Shown here: positions 1 to 19,342 of the stretch, piece by piece
How positions within the stretch are numbered: position 1 is the first letter of the stretch
Layout: each line of letters begins with the position of its first letter
Source of the DNA: Ostreococcus lucimarinus
Lineage: Eukaryota
Reading direction: 5' to 3' (one strand)
Assembly (NCBI GenBank): GCA_000092065.1
Contig: CP000594.1
DNA length: 64,000 nucleotides
Made by a program: the position numbers and the translations under genes
The notes under the pieces: generated by a model
Seen by the model: only the letters and a program-made list of their open reading frames with translations
Database searches by the model: none
Told to the model about the DNA's origin: nothing

Positions 1-3000
1 GCGCAGAATTCCTTGAAGACCCCATGTTGACGCGAAACACTCGTCTTCGAGAGCGCAAAAGCCGGGTAGTGCGGAAGAACATCCGACATTGTGTATCGTT
101 CCAACAAGTCTCCGCCAAAACCAATCACCCCGCTGGTGATTCGTCTATCCTTGATCACACCAGTCGCGTCCGGGCGCGTGACGCTCGTCTTGTAGATTTG
201 AGTTTTCTCCGGAATCGACCCTGTCGTATAGCCCTGAAACCACGTCATGTCGCGAAGATCGATTTCGAAGATACCGAGATCGTGCCAGTTCGCAGCCTTC
301 GAACACCGACTTGAGTCAGAGGCGTCGCATAAGCAAACGTGACCCCGGCGATCAACAAACGAGTCGCTCTTTTGGGCGCTCATATCCAACTCGAGATCGC
401 GCCATTCCAAAAACGGGCGCATGGACGTCTCAATCTTTTGGTCGCGGGAATACAACTCTCCCGACAACAAGCCCGCACAAGTGGATTGGTTTACAGACTG
501 GACTGAATCGACAGCACCGGGAAAGCACTGGCTCAAGGGATATCGACGTCGTTCAAATGTATCCGGCAAACCTTTGTCTCGTAGTCTTTGGAGAGCCTTT
601 TTGTCGTACCTGTATGGTGCACGCATGCTGTACGACAAGTCCTCTTCGACGGGTCGGCCGACCGGCCGGACAATGTGATCACTTTGCCGAGCGAGCGTAG
701 TCTCGGCCCAAATGGTGGTAGTATCGTCCCACGCGCCCATACATCCGACGTTGTCGCCCGCAAGCAGTCGTATCCATGCCTTGCGAGGTATTATGGACGT
801 CCCACCTTCAACAAAGATCATATTCGTACGCTGACCAGAGAGCAGCCGCTTCGGCCCAAATCGTATCTGCTGCTCATCATATTTGGGAATACAAACGCTA
901 GCCTTGTCGTCAAAACCATACTTGGCGCCGATCCGACGCGCGCATTGCAATCCGTAAGCGCACTGGTCGTCGCTCATGCAATGTCCTTCGTACGCCTGGC
1001 ATACCTCTCCACCTCCGAGACCTCCACAGTAGTCGTAGTCACCATTCGTGAGATTGAATCGAGCGTTGTAAGCTTCCTTGTTTTCAAAGTAGCCATCAGA
1101 GCCCGAAAAATCGGCGCAACACGCGTACGGGTGAATTTCACTCTCCAGCGCGCACTGCTTTCCAGGAAGTCCCCCTCGAGAAGCGACGAAATATCCTCTG
1201 TCTGTAGCGTTTCCACACGTTTCGTTTGTCCAATAATACTTGCCGACGATATTTGGATCTCCATAACGTCTGGGGTTGCCTCCCCATTGCGTTCGTACGT
1301 AGCTGAGATCACATGTGTCACCGAATGCAAACCCACCGACGACGCCGCTAAGAAGTTCGTTCGCTGAACACAGACGCGTGCCAGCCTGCGCACACTGTCG
1401 CATGGCAAAATGACGCGAGCCAATGCTCTTGCCGCTCACGCCAGGCAAATTTCCTCTCGCGACGTGTTCCATATCACTCAATGCCTTTTTACACTGCTCC
1501 GATTTCTTTGCGCTCGCATCTCGATCAAAGCATGCGGAAGTGTCCGGAGCCACGGCTCTGAAGCCAGGCGCGCCGCACGTGTCAGAGCCTTGCCTCAGCG
1601 CAAAATAGTTTTTGAAAGTGAATCCGTCGGGCTGCATTCCGCCTTCAAGCTTTTCACAGTTCCGTGTCACGTTACACTCATTGTAGCATATTTGCTCAAT
1701 CTCGGGTGGCCCATGACCAACCAATAAACCAATCCAACCGCTGGTATAGCGGCTAGAGTTTTTCGTCAAACTTGCCTTATCGTACGCAATAAGCCCTTGA
1801 GGATCATATGAATGCCAGTCCAAGTCGTATCGCTTCTCGCAGTAGTGAAGTGGCACCTCGCGCACGCAAGGATTTATCATATCACCAGCCGCAAAACACT
1901 TTACCTCCCGACGACGCGACACTGAGCATGTTTCAAAATCGGACGTCCAGTTCCGTGCGAGGCATGGCGACCATTCACCGATAGAGTAAAAATGATTATG
2001 TTGAAACACAATTCTGACAGTGTCATCGTCACCCGTTTTCAGCCTCAGGCCGTAATGCCATCCTTTCATTTGTGCATCCGCAGCGCCATTCACCATCACA
2101 GAAAGATCGCCCTCCAAATCACCAACGCCGTACTTTTTCTGAGTTTTAAAGTCGGTGAAACTCGCCACACAAATGGACTCTCGCCTATTGAAGTTAAACG
2201 AGTTGCAAGCCATGTTGCGAGTTGGACCTTTTTTTAGCGAATCACAGAGCGCAATACACTCTGCCATAGTGAAGGCGGCGCTGCTCTCGATCGCAATGGC
2301 TGGTACGTACTTTTCCGGGTACAAGCGATAATTGTCCTTCATTTTGTTGTCAAATCGACTGCACGCTCCTCGATTACTTCCGAGCATCGCGGATCCAACA
2401 GTATGCGTACAGGGTCCAAGTTTCGTGTCACCTCTGCAGCATGAGCGACCACACTGTGTGACTACGTTGGTCTTCGTGCGAGGCGCCATAGTCCCAGTGA
2501 TTGTATTTCTTCTCTCAGGGCACTGTAAACGGTTCCATTCCAAGTGTATCGAAAGTCTTCCGCCGACGATGGGGTCAATACATCCAGTGTCATCAATCTC
2601 GTTGCCATGATAACACTCGTGACCGGTCAGATTCTTGGCGAAATCAAAGCAGCACCCGTAATCATGGCACGCGCGCGCGCGAGAATCAATGGACATGAAC
2701 TCACTTCGAACGTCGCCGTAGTACGCCGTACACTTGAAACGATCTTCCATTTTAAGCGCACAATCAGCTTTACAAGAGTGGGTGTTACACTCTCGAGAAG
2801 TCTGTGGTAAAACACCACAGATGTGATCTTGGAGCTGCTCGCCGGATGTGGTGTTGACGCAAATCGCGCTCCGCGTTTGTCCACCTCGCTCGCACTTTCG
2901 CGAACAGTTACTCCATTCGCTAATTTCCCATCGGAATCCAAGTGGGTCTTCACCGTAACAATCAGCGTAGCCCCACAAGCCAGGCTTGGAGGTGTAGCAC

Positions 3001-3887
3001 CAAGGTCTCGTGGAAGGCTCGGCCGGCGCACGACCCACAAGGGTTGGTTCAAAGAATTCAACGACTGTCTGCCTTTGACGCGCGTTATAGTCGGTGGTAA
3101 AGGGAAAGACGCACGGCGCGCCACCAGCTGTACCTTCACACGTCGGTATCGCTCTTGAATGCACGACAAAATCTGCATCATTGAGCATCGAAGAGCCATC
3201 GGTGACGCTCTTGAGCAACATCGCGCTCGTCGTCGACACATCAAACGGACGCGTTGTCGAAAGTCCAAGCGTGTCGTGCTTTTTGTACATCCGCGCGGCA
3301 CAGTCCGTCGTGTTTATGCACGTATAATACCCTTGGCATTGGGAATCGCTTGCACAAAGCGTTCGTAGCCCAGTCTCTGATTTCCCGTTCACCGCGCGCC
3401 AAGCGAGAAGATCTGGAAACGCAACCATTTTCCCCTTGTGCGCCTTCCACTTGGCCTTGGAGTGCACACTCTTCTTGCGATAAAAATCACTCTCCGCCGC
3501 TCGTTGTAACCCGAATCCGCGACCGACCAAAGTACAGAAGTCCGTGGTCAGATCCTTCTTGAAACCCGCGCAGGCGAACCCTTTCGCGTCGCACTCGCGT
3601 TCACACGCGTCGAAAGACTCATAAGTCTCCATCAGGTTACTCCCGACTGGAATGCGGCTTCCGTGCCACCAATAATTTGTTAAATCATCCTCCAACGACC
3701 CAAGAGCGGCTTCGGGAACGTTCACGCCCGCTTTTTTCATGGCGCGCCCCAAGCGTCCTTCGGGAACGCACCAAGCATATGCCGTTCGACCGTGAATTCC
3801 GATTAACACGAACGTAGCGACGAGGATGAACGCGGCCGAGTTCCACCCAATCCATCTATCGCGCGTTCTTGTTCTTCTCGTCGTCAT
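1..3887 (-). CDS. Secreted multidomain protein, 3' end beyond window (>1,290 aa). Domains read from a manual reverse-complement translation: signal peptide, PAN/apple-like, FN2/kringle-like (CVFPF...PWCYT...WGYADC), thrombospondin type-1 repeat (WSNCSRKCERGGQTRSAIC), further Cys-rich PAN-like and possible lectin-like modules
   Basis: Manual reverse-complement translation from ATG at 3887-3885 gives an uninterrupted protein-like frame (carefully verified 3887->3000, less carefully to position 1). The N-terminus MTTRRTRTRDRWIGWNSAAFILVATFVLIGIHGRTAYA has signal-peptide character. The ORF is missing from the supplied track, consistent with the track listing only complete ORFs. Plus-strand ORFs 24..1367 are antisense artefacts. 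Confidence 0.6.
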   Translation of the reverse strand, partial: MTTRRTRTRDRWIGWNSAAFILVATFVLIGIHGRTAYAWCVPEGRLGRAMKKAGVNVPEAALGSLEDDLTNYWWHGSRIPVGSNLMETYESFDACERECDAKGFACAGFKKDLTTDFCTLVGRGFGLQRAAESDFYRKKSVHSKAKWKAHKGKMVAFPDLLAWRAVNGKSETGLRTLCASDSQCQGYYTCINTTDCAARMYKKHDTLGLSTTRPFDVSTTSAMLLKSVTDGSSMLNDADFVVHSRAIPTCEGTAGGAPCVFPFTTDYNARQRQTVVEFFEPTLVGRAPAEPSTRPWCYTSKPGLWGYADCYGEDPLGFRWEISEWSNCSRKCERGGQTRSAICVNTTSGEQLQDHICGVLPQTSRECNTHSCKADCALKMEDRFKCTAYYGDVRSEFMSIDSRARACHDYGCCFDFAKNLTGHECYHGNEIDDTGCIDPIVGGRLSIHLEWNRLQCPERRNTITGTMAPRTKTNVVTQCGRSCCRGDTKLGPCTHTVGSAMLGSNRGACSRFDNKMKDNYRLYPEKYVPAIAIESSAAFTMAECIALCDSLKKGPTRNMACNSFNFNRRESICVASFTDFKTQKKYGVGDLEGDLSVMVNGAADAQMKGWHYGLRLKTGDDDTVRIVFQHNHFYSIGEWSPCLARNWTSDFETCSVSRRREVKCFAAGDMINPCVREVPLHYCEKRYDLDWHSYDPQGLIAYDKASLTKNSSRYTSGWIGLLVGHGPPEIEQICYNECNVTRNCEKLEGGMQPDGFTFKNYFALRQGSDTCGAPGFRAVAPDTSACFDRDASAKKSEQCKKALSDMEHVARGNLPGVSGKSIGSRHFAMRQCAQAGTRLCSANELLSGVVGGFAFGDTCDLSYVRTQWGGNPRRYGDPNIVGKYYWTNETCGNATDRGYFVASRGGLPGKQCALESEIHPYACCADFSGSDGYFENKEAYNARFNLTNGDYDYCGGLGGGEVCQAYEGHCMSDDQCAYGLQCARRIGAKYGFDDKASVCIPKYDEQQIRFGPKRLLSGQRTNMIFVEGGTSIIPRKAWIRLLAGDNVGCMGAWDDTTTIWAETTLARQSDHIVRPVGRPVEEDLSYSMRAPYRYDKKALQRLRDKGLPDTFERRRYPLSQCFPGAVDSVQSVNQSTCAGLLSGELYSRDQKIETSMRPFLEWRDLELDMSAQKSDSFVDRRGHVCLCDASDSSRCSKAANWHDLGIFEIDLRDMTWFQGYTTGSIPEKTQIYKTSVTRPDATGVIKDRRITSGVIGFGGDLLERYTMSDVLPHYPAFALSKTSVSRQHGVFKEFC

Positions 3888-4150
3888 CGGTGCGTCAACG
3901 CCCGTCATGGGCGTTCGATTCTCGACCTCGTTGCCACGGATGGTGTTGGCGGAAACCTCGAGTGATAGCGCGGGTGAGTCTCGAACGAACGGGTGAGTTA
4001 CGGGTGAGTCTCGAACGACTGTTTCTTTTCTCGGCCACGCGCGCGTTTTCTTTTGTCCGCCTCTCTCTCTCGCGCGCGTCGTCGAGTGATGCTGGTGCCG
4101 CTCGTGACGGATTTAAGGGCTTGAACACCCGCGTGTAAAGGCAGACACTT

Positions 4151-4230
4151 TATATAGCACTTTGGGAGGTTAAAAGGTGTCCCAAAGTCTCATACATTGG
4201 CCTATACTTTGGCAACATCCCGCGCTTTGA
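4151..4230. repeat. Intergenic repeat module R1 copy A: TATATA-box-like + hairpin CTTTGGGAGG-ttaaaa-...-TCCCAAAG + ATCCCGCGCTTTGA
   Basis: ~80% identical to 16791..16870. The stem shows a compensatory change between copies (GGGAGG/TCCC vs GGGCGG/CGCCC). Confidence 0.6.
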
Positions 4231-4585
4231 TTACAGTACAGTAATATAACCCCCGCCAATGCGCGGGATGAATGGCATACATTCCATAGTATATGGGGAC
4301 CGGACCGGCGGGACGTGTGATTTTTACCGTATGGGTCACGACTCGTCATTCGGAGTACTCGTATGGAATAATGAAACACCATAACTGCATTTACTTTTTG
4401 GTTCATTAAAAAAACCGTACGGGCATTTACTGCAGAATTGGCCACTTTTCGCGCGGGTTTCACTGGACACGTGTCAAAAACGTGGCTTTTCTGAAACTCG
4501 ATTTTTGCTAGGGTTTAGCGTCTCAGTGTCCCGACGGAGATACAGTGCGGGGATCCCGTCGGCAGCACTCTCCGTCGCGCACGCA

Positions 4586-10996: not shown

Positions 10997-11265
10997 ACAA
11001 ATCATTTCAAACCATCCTATTATTGGCATTGTGGTAAGTACAATCGACCTCACGGAAAAGGCAGGCGGTACTGGCGTCGAAGAGTCGCGTGAGATTTCGC
11101 TTAAGATTTCGGCACCCTCGCTTAAGATCTCTTCAGAATCGAATCTCTGAACGCAAGGCGTGGATGTACATTAAACCATGAACGAGGCGGGACACGGTTC
11201 GATTTTTGGATTACAAGTGTAGGTCTACTTTTACGTTTCGTGGACTCCGCTCGAGTCGGCCGATG

Positions 11266-12075
11266 TCACCATGTCAGGTGTTTCGAGTGCACTAGAGACG
11301 TGACCGCCGATACACAGGACGTCGAGCTCGGCGTGCCTGATTTCACGACTCGGCGACCATGGTTTGAAACCGAAATGACCATCGGCTTCAGGCCCAGGCG
11401 CGGCCGCAATGCTACTTTAAACTTAATTTTTTTTTTTTGAAAAAAGAGTAGTAAGAGTAATAAAAATAAACTTTTTTTTTGTTTGAGTTGGGGCCCCCCC
11501 AACATGATAAAACCGCACATCGACGTTGATGTACCACATGTAAGATTTCTCCGGGAACCAATCGTGTGAGTGAAGTGGTCAAACCAAGCCACGCAACTCA
11601 TCGACCGTAAATTGATACTTGTCGAGACTGCGCTTCGAAGGCAGCGTGCCGCGCGCTCGAGCATTCTTGAGGCACGTCTTACGCAGTATCTTTTCGCGTG
11701 CTGCTTGTAATAATTGAGTTGTCTGTAGTTACCATCGCCGCCGTCCCGCTTCGGCGTATATTGAGCTCTGCTGTAGGCCGGACTCTCGTCCACGTTCTCG
11801 TGGCACGCCTGCTTCTGGCTGCGTCCAGTAGCTCGGGAGTTGAATAAGCCGTCACGCTTCTCTCTCATGTAGGCACTTTTACGTTGATGGAGCTCTCCAG
11901 CTGGAATGTCCTTTTCGAGAACTCTCACGTCCGCGTCGCCAAACGTGAAGATTGGATGCCGTGCGTATTTATGCGAGGCAAGGCGCGCTCTGATCGAACC
12001 TGTCGTCGATCCGATGTACGTTTTGTCACATTTCGCATTATCGCTATACATTTCGTACACGCATCCCGACGGCAT
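11266..12075 (-). CDS. GIY-YIG family (homing-type) endonuclease; C-terminal ~90 codons run through a poly(A/T) tract without a stop (possibly decaying)
   Basis: N-terminus CVYEMYSDNAKCDKTYIGSTTGSIRARLASHKY matches the GIY-YIG motif (GIY...YIGS...R...H; compare I-TevI GIYQIKNTLNNKVYVGSAKDFEKRWKRH). Downstream E...N (REKRDGLFNS) fits. Low-GC codon usage. Confidence 0.55.
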   Translation of the reverse strand: MPSGCVYEMYSDNAKCDKTYIGSTTGSIRARLASHKYARHPIFTFGDADVRVLEKDIPAGELHQRKSAYMREKRDGLFNSRATGRSQKQACHENVDESPAYSRAQYTPKRDGGDGNYRQLNYYKQHAKRYCVRRASRMLERAARCLRSAVSTSINLRSMSCVAWFDHFTHTIGSRRNLTCGTSTSMCGFIMLGGPQLKQKKSLFLLLLLLFFQKKKIKFKVALRPRLGLKPMVISVSNHGRRVVKSGTPSSTSCVSAVTSLVHSKHLTW

Positions 12076-12244
12076 TTGTCCTGGTTACCTATCTATCCCT
12101 AAGAAAATATTGTTGCCTCCTCCTGCGGTTTGCAGTCACATTCGAGAGACCATAGGTACTCGTGTCGCTGCGTGGGGTGCAAGGTCCGGGATGTAGATAT
12201 CGAACCGCCCGATTTCACACCTGGACGTTCGTGATCCGTCGAGA

Positions 12245-12435
12245 CCTGACGAAATGACGAACTTGTTTTGTCGTCCCGAAATTCGTCAGCCCGTCGTTCG
12301 GTCACACTTTGTGTGTACCAATGATGAAAATGACGAAATGTTAAAATATTTTAATGTTTATTTTTATTTTAGATCTATGACAAGCAACAGTGTAGACCTT
12401 TATGAAAACAGTTCGTCATTCGTCATTTCGTCAGG
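12245..12435. promoter_or_regulatory. Inverted repeat (CCTGACGAAATGACGAAC / GTTCGTCATTCGTCATTTCGTCAGG) flanking an AT-rich core between the D5 3' end and the GIY-YIG 5' end
   Basis: Arms at 12245..12262 and 12411..12435 are near-perfect reverse complements. The core 12325..12375 is >80% AT. Confidence 0.35.
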
Positions 12436-12500
12436 ATCCAAACCATGGTCTTTTTGGTGTCTTGTTGAGTCTTCATATTGCAAATGTACGAATTACAAAA

Positions 12501-14711
12501 TTAGTATGAGCACCAGACGACCGCCGGCGCGAGCTCCGTCTCCCCCGTGTACCCATTGTTCTTCAGCCACTCGAAGCACCCGTCGCGGTCAATTTCCCAA
12601 TAAACGCCCTTCTCGTCCCTACCTTGCCTCAGGTGGTCCTCTTGCATTGGGACCCTGTGGCCCTTTTCCTTCTTGAAGAAGTCCTTGAGCTTATTACCGA
12701 CCTTCGTCGCGCTATCTTGACCGCGCGCAGCCGCTGGCAACCACGTCTGGTATTCGATGAAGATGTCACTGTTGCGGATTTTATTTCCAACCCACTTCTC
12801 AGGGAATTCAACAGTGACGCAATGCTCAAACCATCGAGTGAACTTGGGCATGCATCCACGCTTCATTTCCGAATACGCATCGGTCGTAGGTCTGTCTTTG
12901 ACGTAGTCAAAGGTCGATAGGTCGAGCCCCATGAGATGGTCGTAGATTGCCCTCAAGTTCCTCGGATCCCTGATGTAAACCTCGCGGAATTCCTTCAAGA
13001 ATCCAGTCTGGTCGTTCAAGTGCGTGAGCAGTGGCTCCATGACGACGAACCGACGATCACTCATTTCCAGAAAGACCGGGTAGTCGTCGTTCGAGAAAAA
13101 TAGGAACCCAACCAGATTCATGATGACGTACAGCTGCACGTGCTTCGGGTTGATTGTGAAACTCGTGTCCGTGAGCATCGACTTCAGCAACTTTCTATAC
13201 ATTTTCATGATGCACTCATCTGCTTCGTTCAACGCGAGGCACTTTTTGCCTTCAATCATGTTCGCATGCGTCCCAAATATGTCCTTTTTCGGATCAGCCG
13301 TCTCGTGAAACGTCTTGCCCATGAGCGCGTGAAGCAGGTGCAGGAAAGTGCCCTTGCCGGTACCTTGGACTCCTCGAAACACGAGCGACGTGATCGGCTT
13401 CTCTTCGGGTCTCTGGAAGAGACACGCGAACCAATTCGAAGCGTACTCGAGCGCATTTTCTGAACCGCCACATAGCACCAGGAGGAGCTCGAGGAAAGGC
13501 TTCACGTCGCCCTCTTTGCCCAGTTCACTGGGGATGCCTTCGACCGGGTAGCCTCGCCACAGATTGTACGTCTTGTTGCTGCAGTTTTTCGGGACGACGT
13601 CGAGGTTATCGTACACCCGTTTATTGTCGTCGTCGAGCCACTTTTCGATGAACCCGTTTTTCTTGCCTTTCCTCAAGACACCGTTCTCATCGACAAAGGA
13701 GAGCTCTCGATAGCGCCTCACCAAAGCGGCCTCGCTGTACTTGGTAATGTCCCCGGTGGTTCCATAACAGCTATCGTCGCAGAAGAGGTCCTTGGTTAAG
13801 ATCTTTGCGACGTGCTTCTCGAACTCACGGCGGACCTCGATGTAGCCCGCAGACGTGCCCTCTTTGATTTCGTTCTGCTCCTTTTCGGTGATACCGGTCA
13901 CCAAACACCCAACCTCAAAGCGAAACTGTCTGGGCTTGCAGTTGCCATGGTTTTTCACGGTGAGCACGCCGAGACCGACCTCGGCGACGTAAAAGTGATT
14001 CCCACCGCCCCTTCCATTGCCTTCGTGGAAGCCCCCACAGCAAGGACATTGGCCCACAGTGGTGCCTCGCTGTGGGCGACATTGGTCGCATTCAAAATCA
14101 TACGATGTCGCTCCACTGAGCCAATGTATGCCCGTGAACCCCATTTCCTCGAGCAAAGGTGTCACAGATGCTTGCGTAAAGCTGCACTCCGTGTCCGCGC
14201 GTTCGACCTTGTGACCGACTTTGCCATCAAGGAAACTGTACAAATCGTTGGGCATCGGTGGTAAATTGTTGATGTCGCCTCGGAGTAGCTCGTAGCCCGG
14301 GGCATCGGCACCGACCACGTAGTTACCCGTCGTACGGATATCGACGAACCCTTCGATGCCCACCGTGCCTTTCCAATCGCCGAATCGTTCTTCGTCCCAT
14401 GCGAAGTACGTGTGGTACCCGCCTGATCGCGTTTTGACGATATACGCGCCTTCCCCGCCGACCTTGCGCGTCAACATTTCTTCCGTGAGTTCAAACTCGC
14501 ACTTGCCACCGTAACAATCCCAGTCGATGACGAGGACACGGTTCGGTCGCCCTGTCAGCACGCCGTACATTTCTCCTGGGATGACTTTCTGCGTATTCCG
14601 TTCATAGTTTGCTTCATCGAGGAACCCCCTGCCGCATGTTGGCTCCTTGTCCTGGTCGAGTGGGATCAGATGCATGCCGTTCGTAAATTCTCTGGCGTCC
14701 ATATATATCAC
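12501..14711 (-). CDS. D5-like primase-helicase: N-terminal PrimPol (archaeo-eukaryotic primase) domain, D5_N, SF3 helicase (NCLDV/PLV/virophage/phage-P4 type)
   Basis: 736-aa ORF. PrimPol motifs (VLVIDWDCYGG...GGYHTYF...FVDIRTTGNYVVGA). Walker A VFRGVQGTGKGT and Walker B CLALNEADE of an SF3 helicase. Low-GC codon usage. Confidence 0.85.
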   Translation of the reverse strand: MIYMDAREFTNGMHLIPLDQDKEPTCGRGFLDEANYERNTQKVIPGEMYGVLTGRPNRVLVIDWDCYGGKCEFELTEEMLTRKVGGEGAYIVKTRSGGYHTYFAWDEERFGDWKGTVGIEGFVDIRTTGNYVVGADAPGYELLRGDINNLPPMPNDLYSFLDGKVGHKVERADTECSFTQASVTPLLEEMGFTGIHWLSGATSYDFECDQCRPQRGTTVGQCPCCGGFHEGNGRGGGNHFYVAEVGLGVLTVKNHGNCKPRQFRFEVGCLVTGITEKEQNEIKEGTSAGYIEVRREFEKHVAKILTKDLFCDDSCYGTTGDITKYSEAALVRRYRELSFVDENGVLRKGKKNGFIEKWLDDDNKRVYDNLDVVPKNCSNKTYNLWRGYPVEGIPSELGKEGDVKPFLELLLVLCGGSENALEYASNWFACLFQRPEEKPITSLVFRGVQGTGKGTFLHLLHALMGKTFHETADPKKDIFGTHANMIEGKKCLALNEADECIMKMYRKLLKSMLTDTSFTINPKHVQLYVIMNLVGFLFFSNDDYPVFLEMSDRRFVVMEPLLTHLNDQTGFLKEFREVYIRDPRNLRAIYDHLMGLDLSTFDYVKDRPTTDAYSEMKRGCMPKFTRWFEHCVTVEFPEKWVGNKIRNSDIFIEYQTWLPAAARGQDSATKVGNKLKDFFKKEKGHRVPMQEDHLRQGRDEKGVYWEIDRDGCFEWLKNNGYTGETELAPAVVWCSY

Positions 14712-15181
14712 ATAAGAAAAGAATTCTTTAAGCCGTGTTTTTCCTGGTCACATCGGCGCGATGACTGATTTTCAAGTTTTTCAACAGCCTGGAAAAGCAC
14801 GCCAGCACGCCCCACTGGTCAACATTTTGCCACTTTTTCGACGAGATCGGGGTACTGCAAAGCACACGGCGAAGACGGGTGGCCGATGATCCATGTGTCC
14901 GTGTCTTCTCTGATGATTCGCTCCCGTTCATGGCTCAAGTGGTCGCGCGACCTCGCGCGTGAACGAAGGTGCCAAATTTTAGGTACCAGAGGTGCCCATT
15001 TCTTCGTGGTGAGATGGTCCCTCGTGTACCACGCCGCTCCCCTTTAAGTATGAAAAGTTATGTCCAATATATTGCGCGCGATGTCCGATGGTACACCATA
15101 CAATTTCATAGTTAAGCCACACTTATTATATGACGACAGTGCCTACCTGTCGGTGGTCACGGAAAAGTTGCGTCTCAGACT

Positions 15182-15320
15182 GAGGATGGCGTGGCTCATG
15201 CGAGCTATATATACCTCATATATACATATATTAACACTTATAACACTATTAATGTACAATTGATTGGATGAGGTGCTCAGTCCACCCGCGCGAGGTCAAC
15301 AGCAGCAATTGTCTATGCAC
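15182..15320. repeat. Direct repeat R2 copy A (~140 bp), includes the last ~20 nt and 3' flank of the metallothionein-like CDS
   Basis: ~90% identical to 16869..17008. Confidence 0.6.
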
Positions 15321-15643
15321 TTGGAGCATGAGTTTTTGCACTCGCACGACGGACACGCGCAGGAGGTGCATCCGCACGACTTACACGTGGTCGCATCGGG
15401 ACACGCGCATTTGTCGGGGCCACAAGCATCACAGTCTTTCGGGCAGCACGCCTTGTCCGTGGACTCAGATTGTACCGTCCGTGCTGCAACCCGCGTCGGG
15501 CGCGAGACGACGCGCACGGCGCGTGGCGCGGTTCTTGACAATACGAAATCTGGTATCTGCGTACTCTTTACCTTAACGGCGGAGACTTTGAGCATTGTTG
15601 CGTCGAGGAATGGGCCAAGGGTAAGTAACCTCGTGGTCGGCAC
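15296..15643 (-). CDS. Metallothionein-like cysteine-rich protein (19 Cys in the C-terminal 50 aa) with a Cys-free, transit-peptide-like 65-aa N-terminal extension
   Basis: C-terminus CCPKDCDACGPDKCACPDATTCKSCGCTSCACPSCECKNSCSKCIDNCCC. The N-terminus is S/T/R/V/A-rich with few acidic residues. Head-to-head with ferritin. Confidence 0.5.
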   Translation of the reverse strand: MPTTRLLTLGPFLDATMLKVSAVKVKSTQIPDFVLSRTAPRAVRVVSRPTRVAARTVQSESTDKACCPKDCDACGPDKCACPDATTCKSCGCTSCACPSCECKNSCSKCIDNCCC

Positions 15644-15684
15644 GTGCCCGCCTTATACAATCGACGCCTGAAAAGGGAGACTGG

Positions 15685-16542
15685 ATGAGATCGAGGGCAC
15701 CCCGTGAGCGATCACTCTTCGACGCGGAACTCGTTCCTGTAGACGGCCAGCCACCACTCGAACGACCATACGGCAGCACAAAAGTACATCCACAACGTGT
15801 ACGTATCGAAATGGCTGCCTATACTCAAGCGACGTTAACAGCACCTTCGTCGTCGACAGCCGTAAGCAATTCGAAGATAAGACTACGCCGTTCACGAACA
15901 ACTACGCGCACACATTCTGATCCGTCCGAAAGTACGCCGTTGAGTGAAGAGGCGCAAATCATAGTTGATGCATCGGAGGCGTACCCAGCGCAGACAAGCG
16001 TGGATTATTCGTTCGCAAGGAGTGGGTTCAGTAACCAGTGTGAACGAGCACTCAACGAGCAAATCAATGTCGAGTACAATATTTCGTACGTCTATCACGC
16101 CATGTGGGCGTACTTCAATCGTGACAATATCGCATTGGCTGGCTTTGCTGAACACTTTCGAAAAGAGTCACTGGAGGAGCGTGCGCATGCGGAACAACTC
16201 ATGGAGTACATGAACTTACGAGGCGGCAAAGTTGAGCTCCAACAATTGTTACCACCACAGAGTGAATACGATCGCCCGGAGAAAGGATGCGCACTATTAG
16301 CCCTGGAGCTGAGTTTGAGTCTCGAAAAGTTGAATAAAGAGAAACTGTGTGAACTGCATCGCGTCGCTGAGGATGCAGGAGACGCACATATGTGCGATTT
16401 TATTGAAGGCGAGTTATTAGACTCGCAGGTTCAAAGTGTGCGACAGGTTAGCGAGATGGTCGCCACGCTATTACGCATGGGACCGCCAGCAGATGGTATG
16501 GCAACTTGGCACTTCGATCAAACCTTACTTGAGGTGGCATAG
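15685..16542 (+). CDS. Ferritin (plant/algal type, with N-terminal targeting/extension peptide; alternative start ATG at 15811)
   Basis: QCERALNEQINVEYNISYVYHAMWAYFNRDNIALAGFAEHFRKESLEERAHAEQLMEYMNLRGGKV...SLEKLNKEKL...WHFDQTLLE matches the plant ferritin consensus (ferroxidase-centre residues E, Y, E..H present). Confidence 0.9.
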   Translation: MRSRAPRERSLFDAELVPVDGQPPLERPYGSTKVHPQRVRIEMAAYTQATLTAPSSSTAVSNSKIRLRRSRTTTRTHSDPSESTPLSEEAQIIVDASEAYPAQTSVDYSFARSGFSNQCERALNEQINVEYNISYVYHAMWAYFNRDNIALAGFAEHFRKESLEERAHAEQLMEYMNLRGGKVELQQLLPPQSEYDRPEKGCALLALELSLSLEKLNKEKLCELHRVAEDAGDAHMCDFIEGELLDSQVQSVRQVSEMVATLLRMGPPADGMATWHFDQTLLEVA

Positions 16543-16652
16543 AAGCGGATTGTATCTCGTTGAGTCTAGTCACTTTCGTGTGCTCGTTTCGTTGGTTTCT
16601 GGTTACGAGTTCTTCCGTTGTTCTAAATATAACATATATTTAGACATATCCA

Positions 16653-16779
16653 AACCCTAGTACAATCACCCTAGGGTTTAGTCAAACTTTAATCAGTTTT
16701 ATCTAAATTAATTTTCATCTGTCGTCGCGAAAGATGAATCCTCGCGACAGAAAAACAGGTCTAAACCTTAAACCCTAAC
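16653..16779. repeat. Cluster of telomere-like / telo-box motifs (AAACCCTAG, CCCTAGGGTTTAG, TAAACCTTAAACCCTAAC)
   Basis: TAGGGTTTAG equals 1.5 units of the plant-type TTTAGGG telomeric repeat. Similar motifs occur at 4509..4518 and 19091..19106. Confidence 0.5.
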
Positions 16780-16790
16780 TTCGGTTGGGC

Positions 16791-16870
16791 TATATAGCAC
16801 TTTGGGCGGTTAAAACCGCGCCCAAAGCCCCATATATTGTCCCATGTTTCGGCCAAATCCCGCGCTTTGA
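16791..16870. repeat. Repeat module R1 copy B (hairpin CTTTGGGCGG-ttaaaa-CCGCGCCCAAAG)
   Basis: Homologous to 4151..4230; abuts R2 copy B. Confidence 0.6.
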
Positions 16871-17008
16871 GGATGGCGTGGCTCATGCGACCTATATATG
16901 CCTCATGCGTACATATATTAACATTTATAAGGGTATTAATACATAATTGATTGGATGGGGTGCTCAGTCCACCCGCGCGAGGTCAACAGCAGCAATTGTC
17001 TTTGCACT
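16869..17008. repeat. Direct repeat R2 copy B
   Basis: ~90% identical to 15182..15320. Confidence 0.6.
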
Positions 17009-17040
17009 GATCAGTCCGTGTTTGACAAGGAGACGTTCGC
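16983..17040 (-). pseudogene. Fragment of a metallothionein-like gene 3' end (...PCQTRTDQCKDNCCC*), duplicated with R2
   Basis: Reverse-strand translation ends ...QCKDNCCC-TGA, paralleling ...SKCIDNCCC-TGA of the 15296..15643 gene. No upstream ORF. Confidence 0.3.
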
Positions 17041-17177
17041 GCGAAAGTGAGTGGAGTGAGATAAGCAAAATTGGGATTTTTTGTTATTTAAAATGACTTC
17101 TTTTATATCGACGATCTTGTCTCGATTATACGCTGACCTTCGCGGGTGCTTGTTGTACTTGTACGTACACGACCCAG

Positions 17178-18968
17178 CTAGTCCGCTTTGTTGTGGATCT
17201 TGTCGCACTTGTCGAAAGCGTATGCGGCGACGGTACTGCTGACCCCGGACGGATCAAAGACTGATGCGAGCTCAGCTGCCGCGCGGACCGCATCCGTCTC
17301 TGATTCCGCGCTGTTTACGTTTTTCATCGCAGAAAAATAGCCGGTAGTCTTACCAACCGCCTCCATACCTTGGTCGAGACTATTTGCCGCCTTTTTCAAA
17401 GCAGCAAGCTTACTCCCAGCTTCGGCAACGTTAGCACCGGCACGGGCTGCAGCCTTGGCCCCAGTTGTCGCAGCTCCACTACTCCCAGCGGTCGCTACAA
17501 ATGCAATAATTTCCAACGGCCCGAGAATCATATTAGTTACCGCGGAGCCACAAGCGGCGTCATCTTTTGCGGCACCCATACCGCAGTTCACCCACTTCTC
17601 ACCGCTCACTGTTGGAGGTTGGCCCCAGCAAACTGGACCGACGCCATTGTAACCACTGCGACATTTCTTGTAACACAAACCAGCGTCGTACTCCAAACCA
17701 GGAGGACACGTGGCTGCTTCAAAGCCGTGTGAGCAGTATATCTTTTTCGGGCAACTCGGCGCAATTCCATGTGCGTACCCATTGCCGGTGCAAGAAACGC
17801 CGCACAAGTTGCAGCCAATCCGGTTCGGATGACTGCTAGGGCAAGGAGGATAACAAAGTCCAAGACAGTCTTGTCTTCCTTTTCTGCTACAGTGCCTTCC
17901 GCCGCATACGAGTCTTGTCCTCGCGTTCCCCAAAAGGCGTCGACCGTTGGCCGCATGTTCGCCAAGGGTGGATGATGATGATGACCAGTACTCCCAGCCA
18001 CACTGGACGGTACCAACACCACGACCGCGGTTACCTCTGTTACAAAAAAGACCATGATCATTCCAGCCCGAGCCGCAGCGTTGATGGCAGTCGTAGCCAA
18101 ATCTGGCATAATTACCGAGGTGGTGGCATTTGGTATAGCACAAGACGCCCCCTGCAATTGTTTCTTTATTGGAAGGGCAATGAGACGGGACTTTGCCCAC
18201 ATCGCGGCCGTATGAGTTTTTCCAACAGAACTCGACGGTGATGGCGTTCGCAACGACAGCACCCTTCGCATTCGACGCAGCACTTACACCATCACTAAAG
18301 CTGTCCCATTTTCCGCCCAACCGAGCAGATAGCATCGCTTCGTGTACCTCCAATAATGCCTTGTCTTGCTCAATCTCTTCGTGCAGTTTTTGCATATATG
18401 CTGAGACGTTCACTGGCGCCGGTTGCGTCGCACCCTCATCCACCGTGGCCTGCCAAACGAAGTTCGAATGCTCATCATTAGCAAGATTTTCATCGTCACG
18501 CCTGCGCAAATGTTGTTTAAGCATCTTAATTCGTAATAGCGTCGCGTTTCTTCCGCCCTTGGTCGATATGAACATGCCATCCTCGGCTCCTGCCGCATTC
18601 AACCTGGGTTCGGCACCTGGGATCACCTCCCCAGGACCCGCACTCCCGAGCAACGCGTGGACTTCTGGACCGAATTCCATCTCGTCAACGAATTCGTCCA
18701 AGTGATCAGGGAGATCAAATTCACCCTGGATCGAGTGCGCGGACAATCCCAGCAACGCAGACGGCCCTTTCGGTGCACTTTCACGGTACGAGAACGAAAT
18801 CACACCCACAGCAAACAGCACAGCGGCCTGCTTCACGGTACACCAGCCGCATGCCGCCGCTTTTCGCCCTTCACGTTCCTCCGTTTGTTGCCAACTGCGA
18901 GCGCCGTCGTTCGACGAGCCGGGCGCGCCGTATGTCTCACTAATCGCCGCCGCTTCGTACGTCGGCAT
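17178..18968 (-). CDS. Cysteine-rich type-II membrane protein (N-terminal signal anchor, coiled region, GCC2/GCC3- or EGF-like Cys repeats, C-terminal Ala-rich module)
   Basis: 596-aa ORF. TM helix AAVLFAVGVISFSY. Repeated CxxC...GY...G..C spacing (CYPPCPSSHPNRIGCNLCGVSC, CYKKCRSGYNGVGPVCWG). C-terminal AAARAGANVAEAGSKLAALKKAANSLDQG resembles the Ala-rich N-terminal part of the 4586..10996 protein (QALAAVKKANEIGGKYG). Confidence 0.6.
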   Translation of the reverse strand: MPTYEAAAISETYGAPGSSNDGARSWQQTEEREGRKAAACGWCTVKQAAVLFAVGVISFSYRESAPKGPSALLGLSAHSIQGEFDLPDHLDEFVDEMEFGPEVHALLGSAGPGEVIPGAEPRLNAAGAEDGMFISTKGGRNATLLRIKMLKQHLRRRDDENLANDEHSNFVWQATVDEGATQPAPVNVSAYMQKLHEEIEQDKALLEVHEAMLSARLGGKWDSFSDGVSAASNAKGAVVANAITVEFCWKNSYGRDVGKVPSHCPSNKETIAGGVLCYTKCHHLGNYARFGYDCHQRCGSGWNDHGLFCNRGNRGRGVGTVQCGWEYWSSSSSTLGEHAANGRRLLGNARTRLVCGGRHCSRKGRQDCLGLCYPPCPSSHPNRIGCNLCGVSCTGNGYAHGIAPSCPKKIYCSHGFEAATCPPGLEYDAGLCYKKCRSGYNGVGPVCWGQPPTVSGEKWVNCGMGAAKDDAACGSAVTNMILGPLEIIAFVATAGSSGAATTGAKAAARAGANVAEAGSKLAALKKAANSLDQGMEAVGKTTGYFSAMKNVNSAESETDAVRAAAELASVFDPSGVSSTVAAYAFDKCDKIHNKAD

Positions 18969-19090
18969 AGTTTGTTCCTTTAGTCGAGCGTCGGATTGTG
19001 GCGAAACGGCGGGTGCCCTCGGTCGGTCGGACGGACTTTCGCGGTCGGTCGGACGAGGGGCCCGTTGGCGCCCCGCGGGTGTGTGTACCA

Positions 19091-19106
19091 GCCCTTAGGG
19101 TTTAAT
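19091..19106. repeat. Telomere-like motif CCCTTAGGGTTTAATG at the island/host boundary
   Basis: Sequence seen directly; lies just upstream of the GC jump at ~19,200. Confidence 0.4.
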
Positions 19107-19222
19107 GTATATTAATGTATTTATGGGTATCATCCCGCGCAATTCGAGGGGTAGATTACTGTACTGTACAGTAACCCTCTAGTAGAACACGCTAGGTGAA
19201 ATCAAGCGCCGCGACCGTACGC

Positions 19223-19304
19223 TTATTCTCGTCGGCGTTTGCCGCTGCCGCTGCTACTGCTACTGCTACTGCTACTGCTCGAGGACGAGCTCGAAGACGA
19301 ACTT

Positions 19305-19342
<38 letters not shown>

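What the first reader, a model, noticed from the sequence alone, without database searches (positions are those of the whole stretch)
1..19220. Sharp compositional boundary: a ~19-kb low-GC island abutting ordinary GC-rich host DNA
GC falls from roughly 68% in the right-hand part to about 50% left of ~19,200, and codon usage of the island genes is correspondingly GC-poor. Genes in the island are long, intronless and unusual (giant lectins, D5 primase-helicase, GIY-YIG), whereas the right-hand part holds compact GC3-rich housekeeping genes. In Mamiellophyceae such low-GC blocks correspond to the outlier chromosomes or regions (the BOC mating-type-like region, the SOC hypervariable region) or to horizontally acquired or viral DNA. 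The junction at the RbfA 3' end (19,100-19,220) carries a telomere-like motif.
Basis: partly seen in the sequence, partly recalled or inferred. Interest (0 to 1): 0.7.

Follow-up and report, generated by a model that had tools for sequence, protein, structure and literature searches.

The report
Strain-variable low-GC gene-cassette island in Ostreococcus
The left 19 kb of this Ostreococcus lucimarinus window is a moderately GC-poor, strain-variable patch of giant surface-protein genes and movable gene blocks, joined to conserved DNA at a small palindrome where wild strains carry different content.

Summary
The GC step is real but overstated. The left part is 51.9% GC and the right 60.7%, not 50 against 68. 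The right side swings from 48 to 79% because normal genes have GC-rich 5' ends. That gradient plus the great length of the island genes explains roughly 45% of the step.

The window is O. lucimarinus CCE9901, on a 708,927-bp record. That rules out the 149-kb small outlier chromosome (chr 18). Accession order argues against chr 2, which carries the mating-type region; this is an inference.

Marine metagenome contigs are 99.5% identical to the window down to position 19162-19168. Beyond that point they carry at least three different contents, all about 51% GC. The break lies in a palindrome, TTACTGTACAGTAA. The same palindrome and flanking arms bound cassettes at a second locus.

The island holds:
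- two giant adhesin or lectin genes, one of them replaced in other strains;
- a 3.4-kb primase-helicase module with an origin-like hexamer cluster and a possible GIY-YIG nuclease gene, found in at least five contexts;
- a ferritin block found next to five different partners.

No capsid, integrase, transposase, tRNA or telomere array was found. Best reading: a hypervariable accessory-gene locus resembling the small outlier chromosome, on a standard chromosome. This is a new variant of a known kind.

The parts
1..3887 (-). Giant gene A, N-terminal 1295 aa. It has a TSP1 domain, 5.2% Cys and an N-terminal hydrophobic segment, and runs off the left end of the window. It is low in GC but conserved between haplotypes.
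   Evidence: ORF with no stop codons. Pfam TSP1_ADAMTS. 99.67% identical to L109 1-3910, which is haplotype C. A JGI gene call continues at least 2.4 kb beyond the window start. GC3 is 0.56.
3990..11092 (.). Segment replaced in haplotype C. Haplotype C has a GC-rich promoter region plus a different giant gene C (3247 aa, PAN and TSP1 domains) here.
   Evidence: blastn of L109 and L110 against the window. Pfam scan of gene C. The gene C cluster has 265 members and the gene B cluster 16.
4216..4270 (.). Full palindromic junction site: CATCCCGCGC ... GATTACAGTACAGTAAT ... GCGCGGGATG, with its core at 4231-4244. It lies between divergent genes A and B.
   Evidence: Sequence. Pattern search. DNA hairpin of -19.1 kcal/mol, z = -5.1.
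4100..4585 (.). Two cassette arms running outward from the core. Arm T1 (4100-4238) runs towards gene A. Arm T2 (4237-4585) runs towards gene B. Relatives of both occur at other junctions.
   Evidence: Arm alignment. An arm T2 relative lies upstream of the haplotype B 306-aa gene.
4586..10996 (+). Giant gene B (2136 aa; ABO99589 / XP_001421296). It has Tectonin, F5/8 type C and beta/gamma-crystallin domains, internal repeats of about 104 aa, and a C-terminal membrane anchor.
   Evidence: Pfam. Exact match to the NCBI protein. Hydrophobic segment at residues 2119-2142. Internal repeats.
11093..11415 (.). Repeat of about 324 bp shared with haplotype C (93.5% identity). It is present in several copies at locus 2.
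11416..19165 (.). 7.75-kb segment absent from haplotype C. In haplotype C, position 11415 is joined to 19166 through 2-3 filler bases.
11461..14875 (-). Primase-helicase module of 3.4 kb, recurring at 94-98% identity in at least 5 contexts: this window, two arrangements at locus 2, haplotype B, and L007.
11266..12075 (-). Possible GIY-YIG nuclease ORF (ABO99771). Intact copies elsewhere are 157-165 aa. The reference copy is frameshifted after about residue 128 and reads through to 269 aa.
   Evidence: HMM, PDB and AlphaFold tests gave no support.
12247..12433 (.). Origin-like cluster: 7 copies of the hexamer TCGTCA/TGACGA flanking an AT-rich stretch, immediately 3' of the primase-helicase gene.
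   Evidence: 7 copies in one 500-bp bin, against a window mean of 0.59 and a maximum elsewhere of 3. The hexamer covaries with the protein lineage: TCATCA x7 beside the copy that is 81% identical.
12501..14702 (-). PrimPol plus D5-like SF3 helicase (733 aa).
   Evidence: Pfam DUF5906; homologues also carry Prim-Pol PF09250. PHROGs 'DNA primase'. PDB match 6k9c, deposited as 'Primase'. dN/dS 0.07-0.19.
15181..15321 (+). Direct repeat D2, copy 1. The second copy is at 16868-17008 (90% identity). The pair brackets the metallothionein-like ORF and the ferritin gene.
15296..15643 (-). Cys-rich metallothionein-like ORF. The 52-aa core matches an intact gene at locus 2. In the reference, the codon aligned with that gene's ATG is AAG.
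15685..16542 (+). Ferritin gene (the partial NCBI model is ABO99591). GC3 is 0.49.
   Evidence: Pfam..
16791..16870 (+). Truncated copy of arm T1, ending ...ATCCCGCGCTTTGA. It abuts the second D2 copy.
16868..17008 (+). Direct repeat D2, copy 2.
17178..18968 (-). Cys-rich 596-aa protein of unknown function (ABO99774). In wild contigs the block holding it, and ferritin where the contig reaches that far, meets 5 different partners at the palindrome.
18969..19164 (-). Arm T3, upstream of the 596-aa gene. It contains the telobox-like AAACCCTAA at 19095-19103.
   Evidence: A related arm lies at the locus 2 boundary.
19131..19175 (.). Island boundary: a half-site CATCCCGCGC-N13-GATTAC, then the palindromic core TTACTGTAC-TGTAC-AGTAA at 19156-19174. 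All haplotypes diverge here, at 19162-19168.
19223..19885 (-). First conserved gene to the right of the island, RbfA-like (220 aa). The normal-GC region starts here.
   Evidence: Pfam. The exact protein is indexed in 117 blocks of the collection.

Best explanation
The left part of the window is one end of a hypervariable accessory-gene locus on a standard chromosome of Ostreococcus lucimarinus CCE9901. It resembles the small outlier chromosome in behaviour.

How it is built. It is made of cassettes. Each complete cassette starts with a conserved arm (5'-CAGTAATC, 0-11 nt, GCGCGGGATG...) followed 190-400 bp later by a gene. Arms meet head to head at a TA inside the palindrome TTACTGTACAGTAA. 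The same core marks the border with conserved DNA.

How it varies (core shown, mechanism inferred). Strains differ by replacement, deletion and relocation of whole cassettes, and most of the junctions recovered lie at these palindromes. I infer that breakage or recombination at the palindromes causes this.

The moving parts.
- A 3.4-kb module encodes a PrimPol/D5-type helicase, an adjacent origin-like hexamer cluster with an AT-rich centre, and a small possible GIY-YIG nuclease. It travels with variable giant surface-protein genes and occurs at several loci.
- A block holding ferritin and the 596-aa gene also sits in several contexts.

Why the GC is low (inferred). First, giant genes sit at the 3' baseline of the normal 5'-to-3' GC decline. 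Second, the cassettes lack the GC-rich 5' peaks of normal genes. They are often without a matching partner sequence in crosses, so they would rarely undergo recombination-linked GC-biased gene conversion.

Likely role (inferred). Diversifying cell-surface proteins, probably under pressure from viruses.
For: Shown.
- Organism and record.
- Metagenome contigs are 99.4-99.6% identical down to 19162-19168 and then diverge.
- Three haplotypes are each supported by several independent contigs. They include contigs of 217-232 kb, and the reference arrangement itself is recovered in L009.
- All alternative contents are also 51% GC.
- 11 distinct junction contexts share the palindromic core. The arm on the 596-aa-gene side meets 5 different partners.
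- The arm terminus is conserved in 10 arms.
- Full sites fold as strong DNA hairpins (z about -5 to -6).
- The same core and arms bound a second low-GC island, which varies between samples.
- An 8-kb block (primase-helicase to a DUF285 giant gene) is 96-97% identical at locus 1 (haplotype B) and locus 2.
- The haplotype B 306-aa gene has a >=90% homologue, ABO99769, just left of gene A in the reference. This fits a deletion between two sites.
- The helicase gene is under purifying selection, and the hexamer covaries with the protein lineage.
- GC gradient and the expected-GC calculation.

Background from papers.
- GC-biased gene conversion and low GC where recombination is suppressed in Ostreococcus: PMC8557840, PMC5498103.
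- Low-GC dispensable cassettes with fixed borders on regular Bathycoccus chromosomes: PMC5128809.
Against: - No recombinase, transposase or integrase was found in the window, so the enzyme acting at the palindrome is unknown.
- The GIY-YIG assignment is weak.
- The haplotype C right junction and the left end of the 7.75-kb segment are not at a full palindrome. They look like end-joining, so more than one mechanism is at work.
- The primase-helicase module has no recognisable terminal repeats.
- The left border of the island lies outside the window and could not be reached.
- The chromosome assignment is inferred from accession order, not from coordinates.
- Most short-read contigs stop within a few kb of the junction. 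Some contexts therefore rest on only 100-970 bp of sequence.
Confidence: 0.6

Rival explanations
1. This is the edge of the big outlier region on chromosome 2, the candidate mating-type locus. In that case the step is the known mating-type border, and haplotype B is the opposite mating type.
For: - A GC drop of about 9 points lies within the 9-17% used to define mating-type borders (PMC8557840).
- The O. tauri ferritin gene is ostta02g03400, on chr 2.
- Haplotype B cannot be aligned with the reference beyond the junction.
Against: - Protein ids XP_001421296-483 have index 5939-6126 of about 7600. XP numbers rise in step with the O. tauri XP numbers of the proteins listed for the same functions, so the list is ordered by chromosome and chr 2 should come early.
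- There are at least 3 haplotypes, not 2.
- Gene A, which is low in GC, is 99.67% identical between haplotypes.
- Modules are 94-99.9% identical in different contexts, which is incompatible with anciently diverged, non-recombining mating types.
- The same modules occur at a second locus.
- No intron-rich housekeeping genes are present.
Confidence: 0.07
2. The island is integrated viral DNA: a prasinovirus fragment, an endogenous giant-virus element, or a polinton-like virus or virophage.
For: - The D5-like primase-helicase matches phage primase families and a PDB chain deposited as 'Primase', which I take from memory to be that of phage NrS-1.
- Distant helicase relatives are common in IMG/VR viral contigs.
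- Relatives at 33-35% identity sit on small, 43%-GC contigs of unknown nature.
Against: - No capsid, packaging ATPase, polymerase B or integrase was found.
- IMG/VR holds no close relative. The best hits have at most 31% identity, and only over the helicase half.
- The 8 L008 ORFs scanned besides its own primase-helicase match no phage family.
- Most of the island consists of giant cellular-type adhesin genes, ferritin and a metallothionein-like gene.
- Only the 3.4-kb module could plausibly descend from a virus or plasmid.
Confidence: 0.08
3. Nothing is special here. The low GC is just what very long genes look like in this genome, because GC falls with distance from the gene start.
For: - In 21 normal genes, GC falls from 0.68 in the first 300 nt to about 0.53 beyond 1.2 kb, and GC3 falls from 0.80 to 0.61.
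- Applying that profile to the island genes predicts 0.569 against a flank value of 0.607. That is about 45% of the gap.
- In haplotype C the promoter between genes A and C is GC-rich (0.63) like a normal one.
Against: - Observed coding GC is 0.527, not 0.569.
- The short island genes (ferritin, the 596-aa gene, the possible GIY-YIG gene) also lack 5' GC peaks. First-300-nt GC is 0.56 against 0.68, and GC3 is 0.60 against 0.80.
- CpG observed/expected is 1.26 against 1.66.
- This reading does not explain the structural polymorphism that coincides exactly with the boundary.
Confidence: 0.12
4. A single translocation moved a piece of the small outlier chromosome (chr 18) onto a standard chromosome. 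No continuing cassette exchange is involved.
For: - The GC of 52% matches that of chr 18, 53%.
- For Bathycoccus, low-GC dispensable cassettes were proposed to derive from that chromosome (PMC5128809).
- Translocations involving that chromosome are documented (PMC13390643; PMC5498103).
Against: - Several haplotypes share the same breakpoint.
- The same modules occur at two loci.
- One block is found in five contexts and another has been exchanged between loci. Both indicate repeated events.
- The content of chr 18 could not be examined here.
Confidence: 0.2

Closest known systems
Small outlier chromosome of Mamiellales (O. lucimarinus chr 18; O. tauri chr 19)
   Same: About 52-53% GC against 60% for the genome. 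Hypervariable between strains. Strain-specific genes, many of unknown function or related to the cell surface. Few introns. Linked in the literature to resistance against viruses (PMC3491373, PMC5498103, PMC5082852).
   Different: Here it is a segment, not a whole 149-kb chromosome, on a 708,927-bp record next to at least 194 kb of conserved DNA. It has a defined palindromic border and arm-plus-gene cassettes, which the papers read here do not describe.
Dispensable low-GC gene cassettes on regular Bathycoccus chromosomes (Vannier et al. 2016, PMC5128809)
   Same: Presence or absence in natural populations, detected with Tara metagenomes. Cassette borders sit at the same position in all samples. 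GC is lower than in the surrounding DNA. The cassettes lie on standard chromosomes.
   Different: Those cassettes hold 2-4 short genes and are either present or absent. Here there are alternative contents (at least 3 haplotypes), giant genes, a shared junction motif, a replication-type module, and movement between loci.
Big outlier region / candidate mating-type locus on chr 2
   Same: A sharp GC drop of similar size. Sequence that cannot be aligned between some haplotypes. Reduced recombination is the likely cause of the low GC.
   Different: Not on chr 2 (inferred). More than two haplotypes. Near-identical modules are shared between haplotypes. No intron-rich housekeeping genes.
Primase-helicase plus adjacent origin in bacterial phage-inducible chromosomal islands (SaPI type), and tycheposon-type elements in Prochlorococcus genomic islands. 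Both are recalled from memory and were not tested.
   Same: A primase/SF3-helicase gene is followed immediately by hexamer repeats flanking an AT-rich stretch, and the repeats are specific to the protein lineage. The module lies in a hypervariable island that carries cargo and surface genes.
   Different: The host is a eukaryote. No integrase or tyrosine recombinase, no tRNA target and no packaging genes were found. Autonomous replication is untested.
Tc1/mariner-type terminal inverted repeat elements (TA target, CAGT termini). Recalled from memory.
   Same: Arms begin 5'-CAGT and meet at TA. The arms at 4239 and 19162 are inverted relative to each other, and each is flanked by TA.
   Different: No DDE transposase was found. 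The arm-bounded unit would be 15 kb of unrelated cargo. Haplotype C shows a replacement rather than an empty site. In 5 of 5 complete arms, a gene start follows within 190-400 bp, so the arms may be promoter regions.

Membership tests
Small outlier chromosome | A whole small chromosome (149 kb in O. lucimarinus) of low GC | tested here: not met
   The window's proteins lie on an NCBI record of 708,927 bp. Chr 18 is 149 kb (PMC3491373).
Small outlier chromosome | GC about 53% against 60% for the genome | tested here: met
   51.9% against 60.7%.
Small outlier chromosome | Hypervariable, strain-specific content | tested here: met
   At least 3 haplotypes at the junction. Gene B is replaced by gene C. 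A 7.75-kb segment is present or absent.
Big outlier region / mating-type locus | Located on chromosome 2 | tested here: not met
   XP index is 5939-6126 of about 7600 in a chromosome-ordered list. This is an inference from accession order, not from coordinates.
Big outlier region / mating-type locus | Two anciently diverged haplotypes that cannot be aligned with each other | tested here: not met
   At least 3 haplotypes. Gene A is 99.67% identical between haplotypes A and C. Modules are 94-99.9% identical across contexts.
Big outlier region / mating-type locus | Sharp GC drop of 9-17 points at the border | tested here: met
   8.8 points overall. 0.555 against 0.682 at +-1 kb.
Big outlier region / mating-type locus | Hundreds of kb in size, with intron-rich housekeeping genes | tested here: inconclusive
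   Only 19 kb can be seen. The ORFs visible are long and uninterrupted. The left border was not reached.
Dispensable low-GC cassettes on standard chromosomes (Bathycoccus type) | Present in some natural genomes and absent in others, with identical borders across samples | tested here: met
   The same breakpoint, 19162-19168, occurs in contigs from many samples.
Dispensable low-GC cassettes on standard chromosomes (Bathycoccus type) | Lower GC than the neighbouring DNA | tested here: met
Dispensable low-GC cassettes on standard chromosomes (Bathycoccus type) | Short genes, in cassettes of 2-4 | tested here: not met
   The locus contains genes of 2136, 3247 and more than 1295 aa.
Integrated virus (prasinovirus, polinton-like virus or virophage) | Capsid and packaging genes, or a viral DNA polymerase or integrase | tested here: not met
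   Pfam, PHROGs and NCBIfam scans of the island ORFs found only the primase-helicase.
Integrated virus (prasinovirus, polinton-like virus or virophage) | Close relatives in viral sequence collections | tested here: not met
   IMG/VR gave none with the single protein. With a profile, hits reached at most 31% identity and covered only the helicase half.
Tc1/mariner-type TIR transposon | TA target duplication and CAGT termini in inverted orientation | tested here: met
   Arms start with CAGTAAT, and TA lies between facing arms. The arms at 4239 and 19162 are inverted.
Tc1/mariner-type TIR transposon | DDE transposase, or a clean empty site in genomes lacking the element | tested here: not met
   No transposase domain was found. 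Haplotype C has different DNA there, not an empty site.
Primase-helicase replicon with adjacent origin | Primase and SF3 helicase in one protein | tested here: met
   DUF5906 in the window protein, Prim-Pol in its homologues, and phage primase families.
Primase-helicase replicon with adjacent origin | Short repeats flanking an AT-rich region next to the gene, specific to the protein lineage | tested here: met
   7 hexamers in 190 bp, against 0.59 per 500 bp in the window. TCGTCA changes to TCATCA with the diverged protein.
Primase-helicase replicon with adjacent origin | Autonomous or induced replication | not testable with these tools
   Needs an experiment or read-level data.
GIY-YIG nuclease | A GIY-YIG domain detectable by profile or by fold | tested here: inconclusive
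   No Pfam, NCBIfam or PDB hit. The AlphaFold model has pLDDT 36 and is unusable. By eye the sequence shows CVY...YIGST...R...H...E...N, and UniProt names it a GIY-YIG domain protein.

The most novel reading that the evidence does not exclude
Ostreococcus standard chromosomes carry a family of modular islands. Their cassettes (a conserved arm plus a gene) are exchanged within and between loci by breakage or recombination at a specific palindromic site. The driver would be a self-replicating primase-helicase module with its own origin and a small nuclease, or that module would at least travel with the cassettes. Such a system would diversify giant cell-surface proteins and could relocate even core genes such as ferritin. 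It would be a eukaryotic counterpart of bacterial genomic islands and integron-like cassette arrays, and a sequence-level handle on how outlier-chromosome hypervariability arises.
Probability: 0.35. Interest if true: 0.8.

Novelty: new variant of a known kind. Interest (0 to 1): 0.62.

Why it matters
Mamiellales algae are major marine primary producers. Their low-GC hypervariable outlier DNA is tied to virus resistance, but how that variability arises is unknown.

This locus shows the same behaviour on an ordinary chromosome, with features that can be tested directly:
- a 14-bp palindromic breakpoint;
- conserved cassette arms;
- a conserved primase-helicase module with a matching origin-like repeat.

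It also shows that about half of a 'GC island' signal in this genome can come from gene length and the strong 5'-to-3' GC decline. Anyone scanning these genomes by composition should take that into account.

Tried and rejected
- **Telomere.** Only one 9-mer plus an inverted copy is present, with no array in the window. None of the loci checked shows an array beyond one two-unit interstitial run in L116, and the contig ends that could be inspected carry none.
- **tRNA integration target.** No tRNA gene in the window.
- **Known RNA families in 1-21000.** None.
- **Homologue search with gene A.** No hits.
- **Walking left of the window through JGI metagenomes.** Only one 1-kb contig at 65% identity.
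- **Exact look-ups.** The primase-helicase protein and the NCBI GIY-YIG model are not indexed. The NCBI chromosome itself is not in the position index, so window coordinates on the chromosome could not be obtained.
- **The palindrome in viral contigs.** One chance hit inside a coding region (translation not checked) of an AT-rich IMG/VR viral contig.
- **Viral identity of the 16.8-kb contig L008.** Apart from its primase-helicase, none of the 8 ORFs scanned matches a phage family.
- **GIY-YIG by HMM, PDB or AlphaFold.** No support. The model is unusable at pLDDT 36.
- **Terminal repeats of the primase-helicase module.** None seen.
- **Chromosome sizes and mating-type region coordinates from papers.** Not available in the texts held.
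- **O. tauri neighbours of ferritin as a synteny test.** Uninformative.
- **Subtelomeric location.** Neither supported nor excluded. At locus 2 the island is internal in a 1.24-Mb contig.

Full report
**1. The observation**

GC is 51.9% for 1-19220 and 60.7% for 19221-64000. The best single change-point is near 18.6 kb. No 19.16-kb window inside the right part falls below 59.7%, and 1-kb windows differ with p = 9e-8. So there is a real step, but it is 9 points, not the 18 claimed.

The right side is very uneven, from 48 to 79% per 500 bp. Across 21 normal genes, GC falls from 0.68 in the first 300 nt of the coding sequence to about 0.53 beyond 1.2 kb. GC3 falls from 0.80 to 0.61. Island genes start at 0.56 and settle at 0.50-0.52.

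If the island genes followed the normal profile, their coding GC would be 0.569. The observed value is 0.527. Gene length and the 5'-to-3' decline therefore explain roughly 45% of the gap, and the rest is a true compositional difference. CpG observed/expected is also lower, 1.26 against 1.66.

Mean GC3 is 0.58 in the island and 0.72 on the right (p = 2e-4). The primase-helicase gene (0.695) and the metallothionein-like ORF (0.655) are exceptions. Within +-500 bp of the junction the composition does not change.

The 'telomere-like motif' is a single TTAGGGTTT at 19095-19103, with an inverted copy at 16770-16778 and no array.

**2. Organism and place**

Exact protein matches identify Ostreococcus lucimarinus CCE9901, on a record of 708,927 bp:
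- gene B is ABO99589 / XP_001421296;
- ferritin is ABO99591;
- the GIY-YIG ORF is ABO99771;
- the 596-aa protein is ABO99774;
- the ABCF protein is ABO99776.

The small outlier chromosome of this species is chr 18, at 149 kb and 53% GC (PMC3491373). That is excluded by size.

The ids are sorted by strand and then by position. The minus-strand ids known here (771, 774 and 776) rise with position, and the intervening ids fit the minus-strand ORFs lying between them. The window's proteins sit at index 5939-6126 of about 7600. In a paper listing proteins of both species by function, O. lucimarinus XP numbers rise in step with the O. tauri XP numbers given for the same functions. The list therefore follows chromosome order. 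That places the window on a chromosome around number 12-14, not on chr 2, which carries the big outlier region. This is an inference from accession order, because I could not obtain coordinates.

**3. Population evidence**

Marine metagenome contigs carrying the exact ABCF or RbfA protein are 99.4-99.6% identical to the window from about 34 kb down to 19162-19168. They then diverge. Three arrangements were found.

- **Haplotype A.** Like the reference. L009 is 99.8% identical across the junction.
- **Haplotype B.** After the junction come an arm related to window 4237-4520, then a 306-aa gene, then a primase-helicase copy. Contig L125 starts exactly at the palindrome and continues through the primase-helicase and small nuclease-like genes into a giant DUF285 gene.
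- **Haplotype C.** Seen in many contigs, including two of 217 and 232 kb. L109 1-3910 equals window 80-3989 at 99.67%, which is gene A. Next come 10 kb of different DNA, with a GC-rich promoter and a 3247-aa PAN/TSP1 gene. Then 324 bp matches window 11093-11415 at 93.5%. Finally window 19166 onward resumes.

Relative to haplotype C, the reference therefore has a different giant gene (3990-11092) and an extra 7.75 kb (11416-19165). All the alternative contents are about 51% GC, next to 60-61% flanks. The low GC belongs to the locus, not to one insert.

The gene C cluster has 265 member sequences and the gene B cluster 16. The reference arrangement therefore looks like the rarer one in the sea.

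The 306-aa gene of haplotype B has a homologue of at least 90% identity in the reference, ABO99769. That is two minus-strand ids before the GIY-YIG ORF, so it lies just left of gene A and outside the window. Haplotype B thus looks like a deletion between two junction sites. It also shows that the island continues beyond the left edge of the window.

**4. The junction**

In haplotypes A and B the break lies in the perfect palindrome TTACTGTACAGTAA. In the reference the core carries a 5-nt TGTAC duplication and sits at 19156-19174. Haplotype C keeps only the right half of the core.

On the island side, every arm reads outward as CAGTAAT(C/A), then 0-11 nt, then GCGCGGGATG, followed by 100-300 bp belonging to a few related types. 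A complete two-armed site lies between genes A and B at 4216-4270. It folds as a DNA hairpin of -19.1 kcal/mol, z = -5.1. A truncated arm ends at 16870.

Across the fetched loci, 11 distinct junction contexts share the core. The arm on the 596-aa-gene side, 99.5-99.95% identical to the reference over 2-5 kb, meets five different partners at the same nucleotide. In the contigs that reach far enough, ferritin travels with that gene.

In all five complete arms, a gene start follows within 190-400 bp. A cassette is therefore an arm plus a gene.

The conserved RbfA flank shares only TACAGTAAC with the arms. Not every junction fits this pattern. The haplotype C right junction and position 11415/11416 lack a full site and look like end-joining with filler bases.

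**5. A second locus**

Long-read contigs from the Great Barrier Reef carry the same modules next to a kynurenine-3-monooxygenase gene. The order is:
1. normal flank;
2. GATTACTGTGCTGTACAGTAAT;
3. an arm containing AAACCCTAAACCCTAA;
4. a 52-aa metallothionein-like gene;
5. a 296-aa gene;
6. the primase-helicase module;
7. variable giant genes.

The structure differs between samples, and GC falls from about 0.58 to about 0.50. In a 1.24-Mb contig this locus is internal, at 946-967 kb.

The 8-kb block from the primase-helicase gene to the DUF285 giant gene is 96-97% identical between this locus and haplotype B at the RbfA locus. Blocks therefore move between loci.

**6. The primase-helicase module**

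The 733-aa protein matches Pfam DUF5906. Its homologues also carry the Prim-Pol domain. It matches phage primase families in PHROGs and a PDB chain deposited as 'Primase'.

The closest cluster is 98% identical and has 601 member sequences, mostly on contigs of 2.5-4.5 kb. The shared unit is about window 11461-14875, at 94-98% identity in at least five contexts.

dN/dS is 0.07-0.19, although some copies are split into two ORFs.

Immediately 3' of the gene lie seven TCGTCA/TGACGA hexamers around an AT-rich stretch. The window average is 0.59 per 500 bp. Beside a copy whose protein is 81% identical, the hexamer is TCATCA, seven times, in the same layout. This is the layout of a replication initiator with its origin. 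The comparison with bacterial island replicons comes from memory and was not tested.

The neighbouring small ORF is 157-165 aa when intact. In the reference it is frameshifted and reads through to 269 aa. UniProt calls it a GIY-YIG domain protein, and the motif is visible by eye. Pfam, NCBIfam, PDB search and an AlphaFold model gave no support.

IMG/VR holds only distant helicase relatives.

**7. Other genes**

- Gene A has a TSP1 domain and is rich in Cys.
- Gene B has Tectonin, F5/8 type C and crystallin domains, plus a C-terminal membrane anchor.
- Ferritin and the metallothionein-like ORF are bracketed by a 141-bp direct repeat.
- The O. tauri ferritin gene is on chr 2 (ostta02g03400). The gene has therefore moved between species as well as between strains.
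- No tRNA gene, known RNA family, capsid, integrase or transposase was found.

**8. Reading**

The best-supported account is a hypervariable accessory locus on a standard chromosome. It is built of arm-plus-gene cassettes and reshuffled mainly at a palindromic site, and a conserved replicon-like module travels with variable giant surface-protein genes.

The low GC is inferred to have two sources. One is the baseline composition of very long genes. The other is the lack of GC-rich 5' peaks in DNA that rarely has a homologous partner. That fits the role of GC-biased gene conversion described for Ostreococcus (PMC8557840, PMC5498103).

The closest described phenomena are the small outlier chromosome and the low-GC dispensable cassettes with fixed borders on regular Bathycoccus chromosomes (PMC5128809). 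The papers I could read describe no palindromic junction motif or replicon module.

**9. Limits**

- The left border and the chromosome coordinates were not obtained.
- The enzyme acting at the palindrome is unknown.
- Several contexts rest on short contigs. De Bruijn assemblies with k of 119-141 cannot join sequences through a 14-bp repeat without read support, and the joined arms are not fold-backs of each other.
- The functional claims are inferences: a replicon, a nuclease, and surface-protein variation driven by viruses.

Noticed in passing
window 19223-64000: Normal genes show a strong 5'-to-3' GC decline. GC goes from 0.68 to 0.53 and GC3 from 0.80 to 0.61 within about 1.2 kb of the start codon. 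This gives 72-79% GC peaks at gene starts, for example at 24-25.5 kb, 33-33.5 kb, 42-43 kb, 56.5-57 kb and 60.5-61.5 kb.
   Followed up: partly
window 15181-17008: The ferritin gene and the metallothionein-like ORF are bracketed by a 141-bp direct repeat (90% identity). Ferritin is on chr 2 in O. tauri but on this 708,927-bp record in O. lucimarinus. In wild contigs the block holding the 596-aa gene, with ferritin in those that reach far enough, sits next to five different partners.
   Followed up: partly
window 15296-15454: The metallothionein-like gene is an intact 52-aa ORF beginning ATG GCG TGC at locus 2. In the reference strain the aligned codon is AAG, so the copy may be inactive or may use another start.
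   Followed up: partly
window 11266-11700: The reference copy of the small nuclease-like gene is frameshifted after about residue 128, compared with the 157-165-aa copies elsewhere. The annotated 269-aa protein ABO99771 is therefore a read-through into the shared 324-bp repeat.
   Followed up: yes
L116-L124 (Great Barrier Reef and Tara contigs): A second hypervariable low-GC island lies next to a kynurenine-3-monooxygenase gene. Its content differs between samples and includes ankyrin genes, DUF285 giant genes and split primase-helicase ORFs. Seven contigs of 109-334 kb end within about 0.7-41 kb of this locus, while one of 1.24 Mb runs through it.
   Followed up: partly
L125 position 1; L001-L006 ends: Short-read assemblies tend to break at or just past the palindrome. 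L125 begins exactly with TTACTGTACAGTAATC.
   Followed up: no
window 8281-8934: Gene B contains tandem internal repeats with a period of 312-318 bp (about 104 aa), at 75-81% nucleotide identity.
   Followed up: no
window 19240-19345: The 3' end of the RbfA-like gene encodes long acidic and serine runs, from GCT/ACT and GTC/GAC microsatellite-like repeats.
   Followed up: no
L008 (JGI 3300017751, 16.8-kb contig, 43% GC): A small contig encodes a full-length primase-helicase 33% identical to the window protein. The other 8 ORFs scanned match no phage family. It may be an unknown small virus or plasmid-like element.
   Followed up: partly
L114 (ENA contig of 108,795 bp): Two tandem giant TSP1 genes (3603 and 3502 aa) lie in 22.8 kb of 48-57% GC DNA at a contig end. 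The last 730 bp match the 3' end of haplotype C's giant gene at 90-91% identity, which suggests mosaic giant genes.
   Followed up: no
NCBI protein ids on this record: GenBank protein ids for CCE9901 appear to be ordered first by strand and then by position: plus-strand genes 589 and 591, minus-strand genes 769, 771, 774 and 776.
   Followed up: partly
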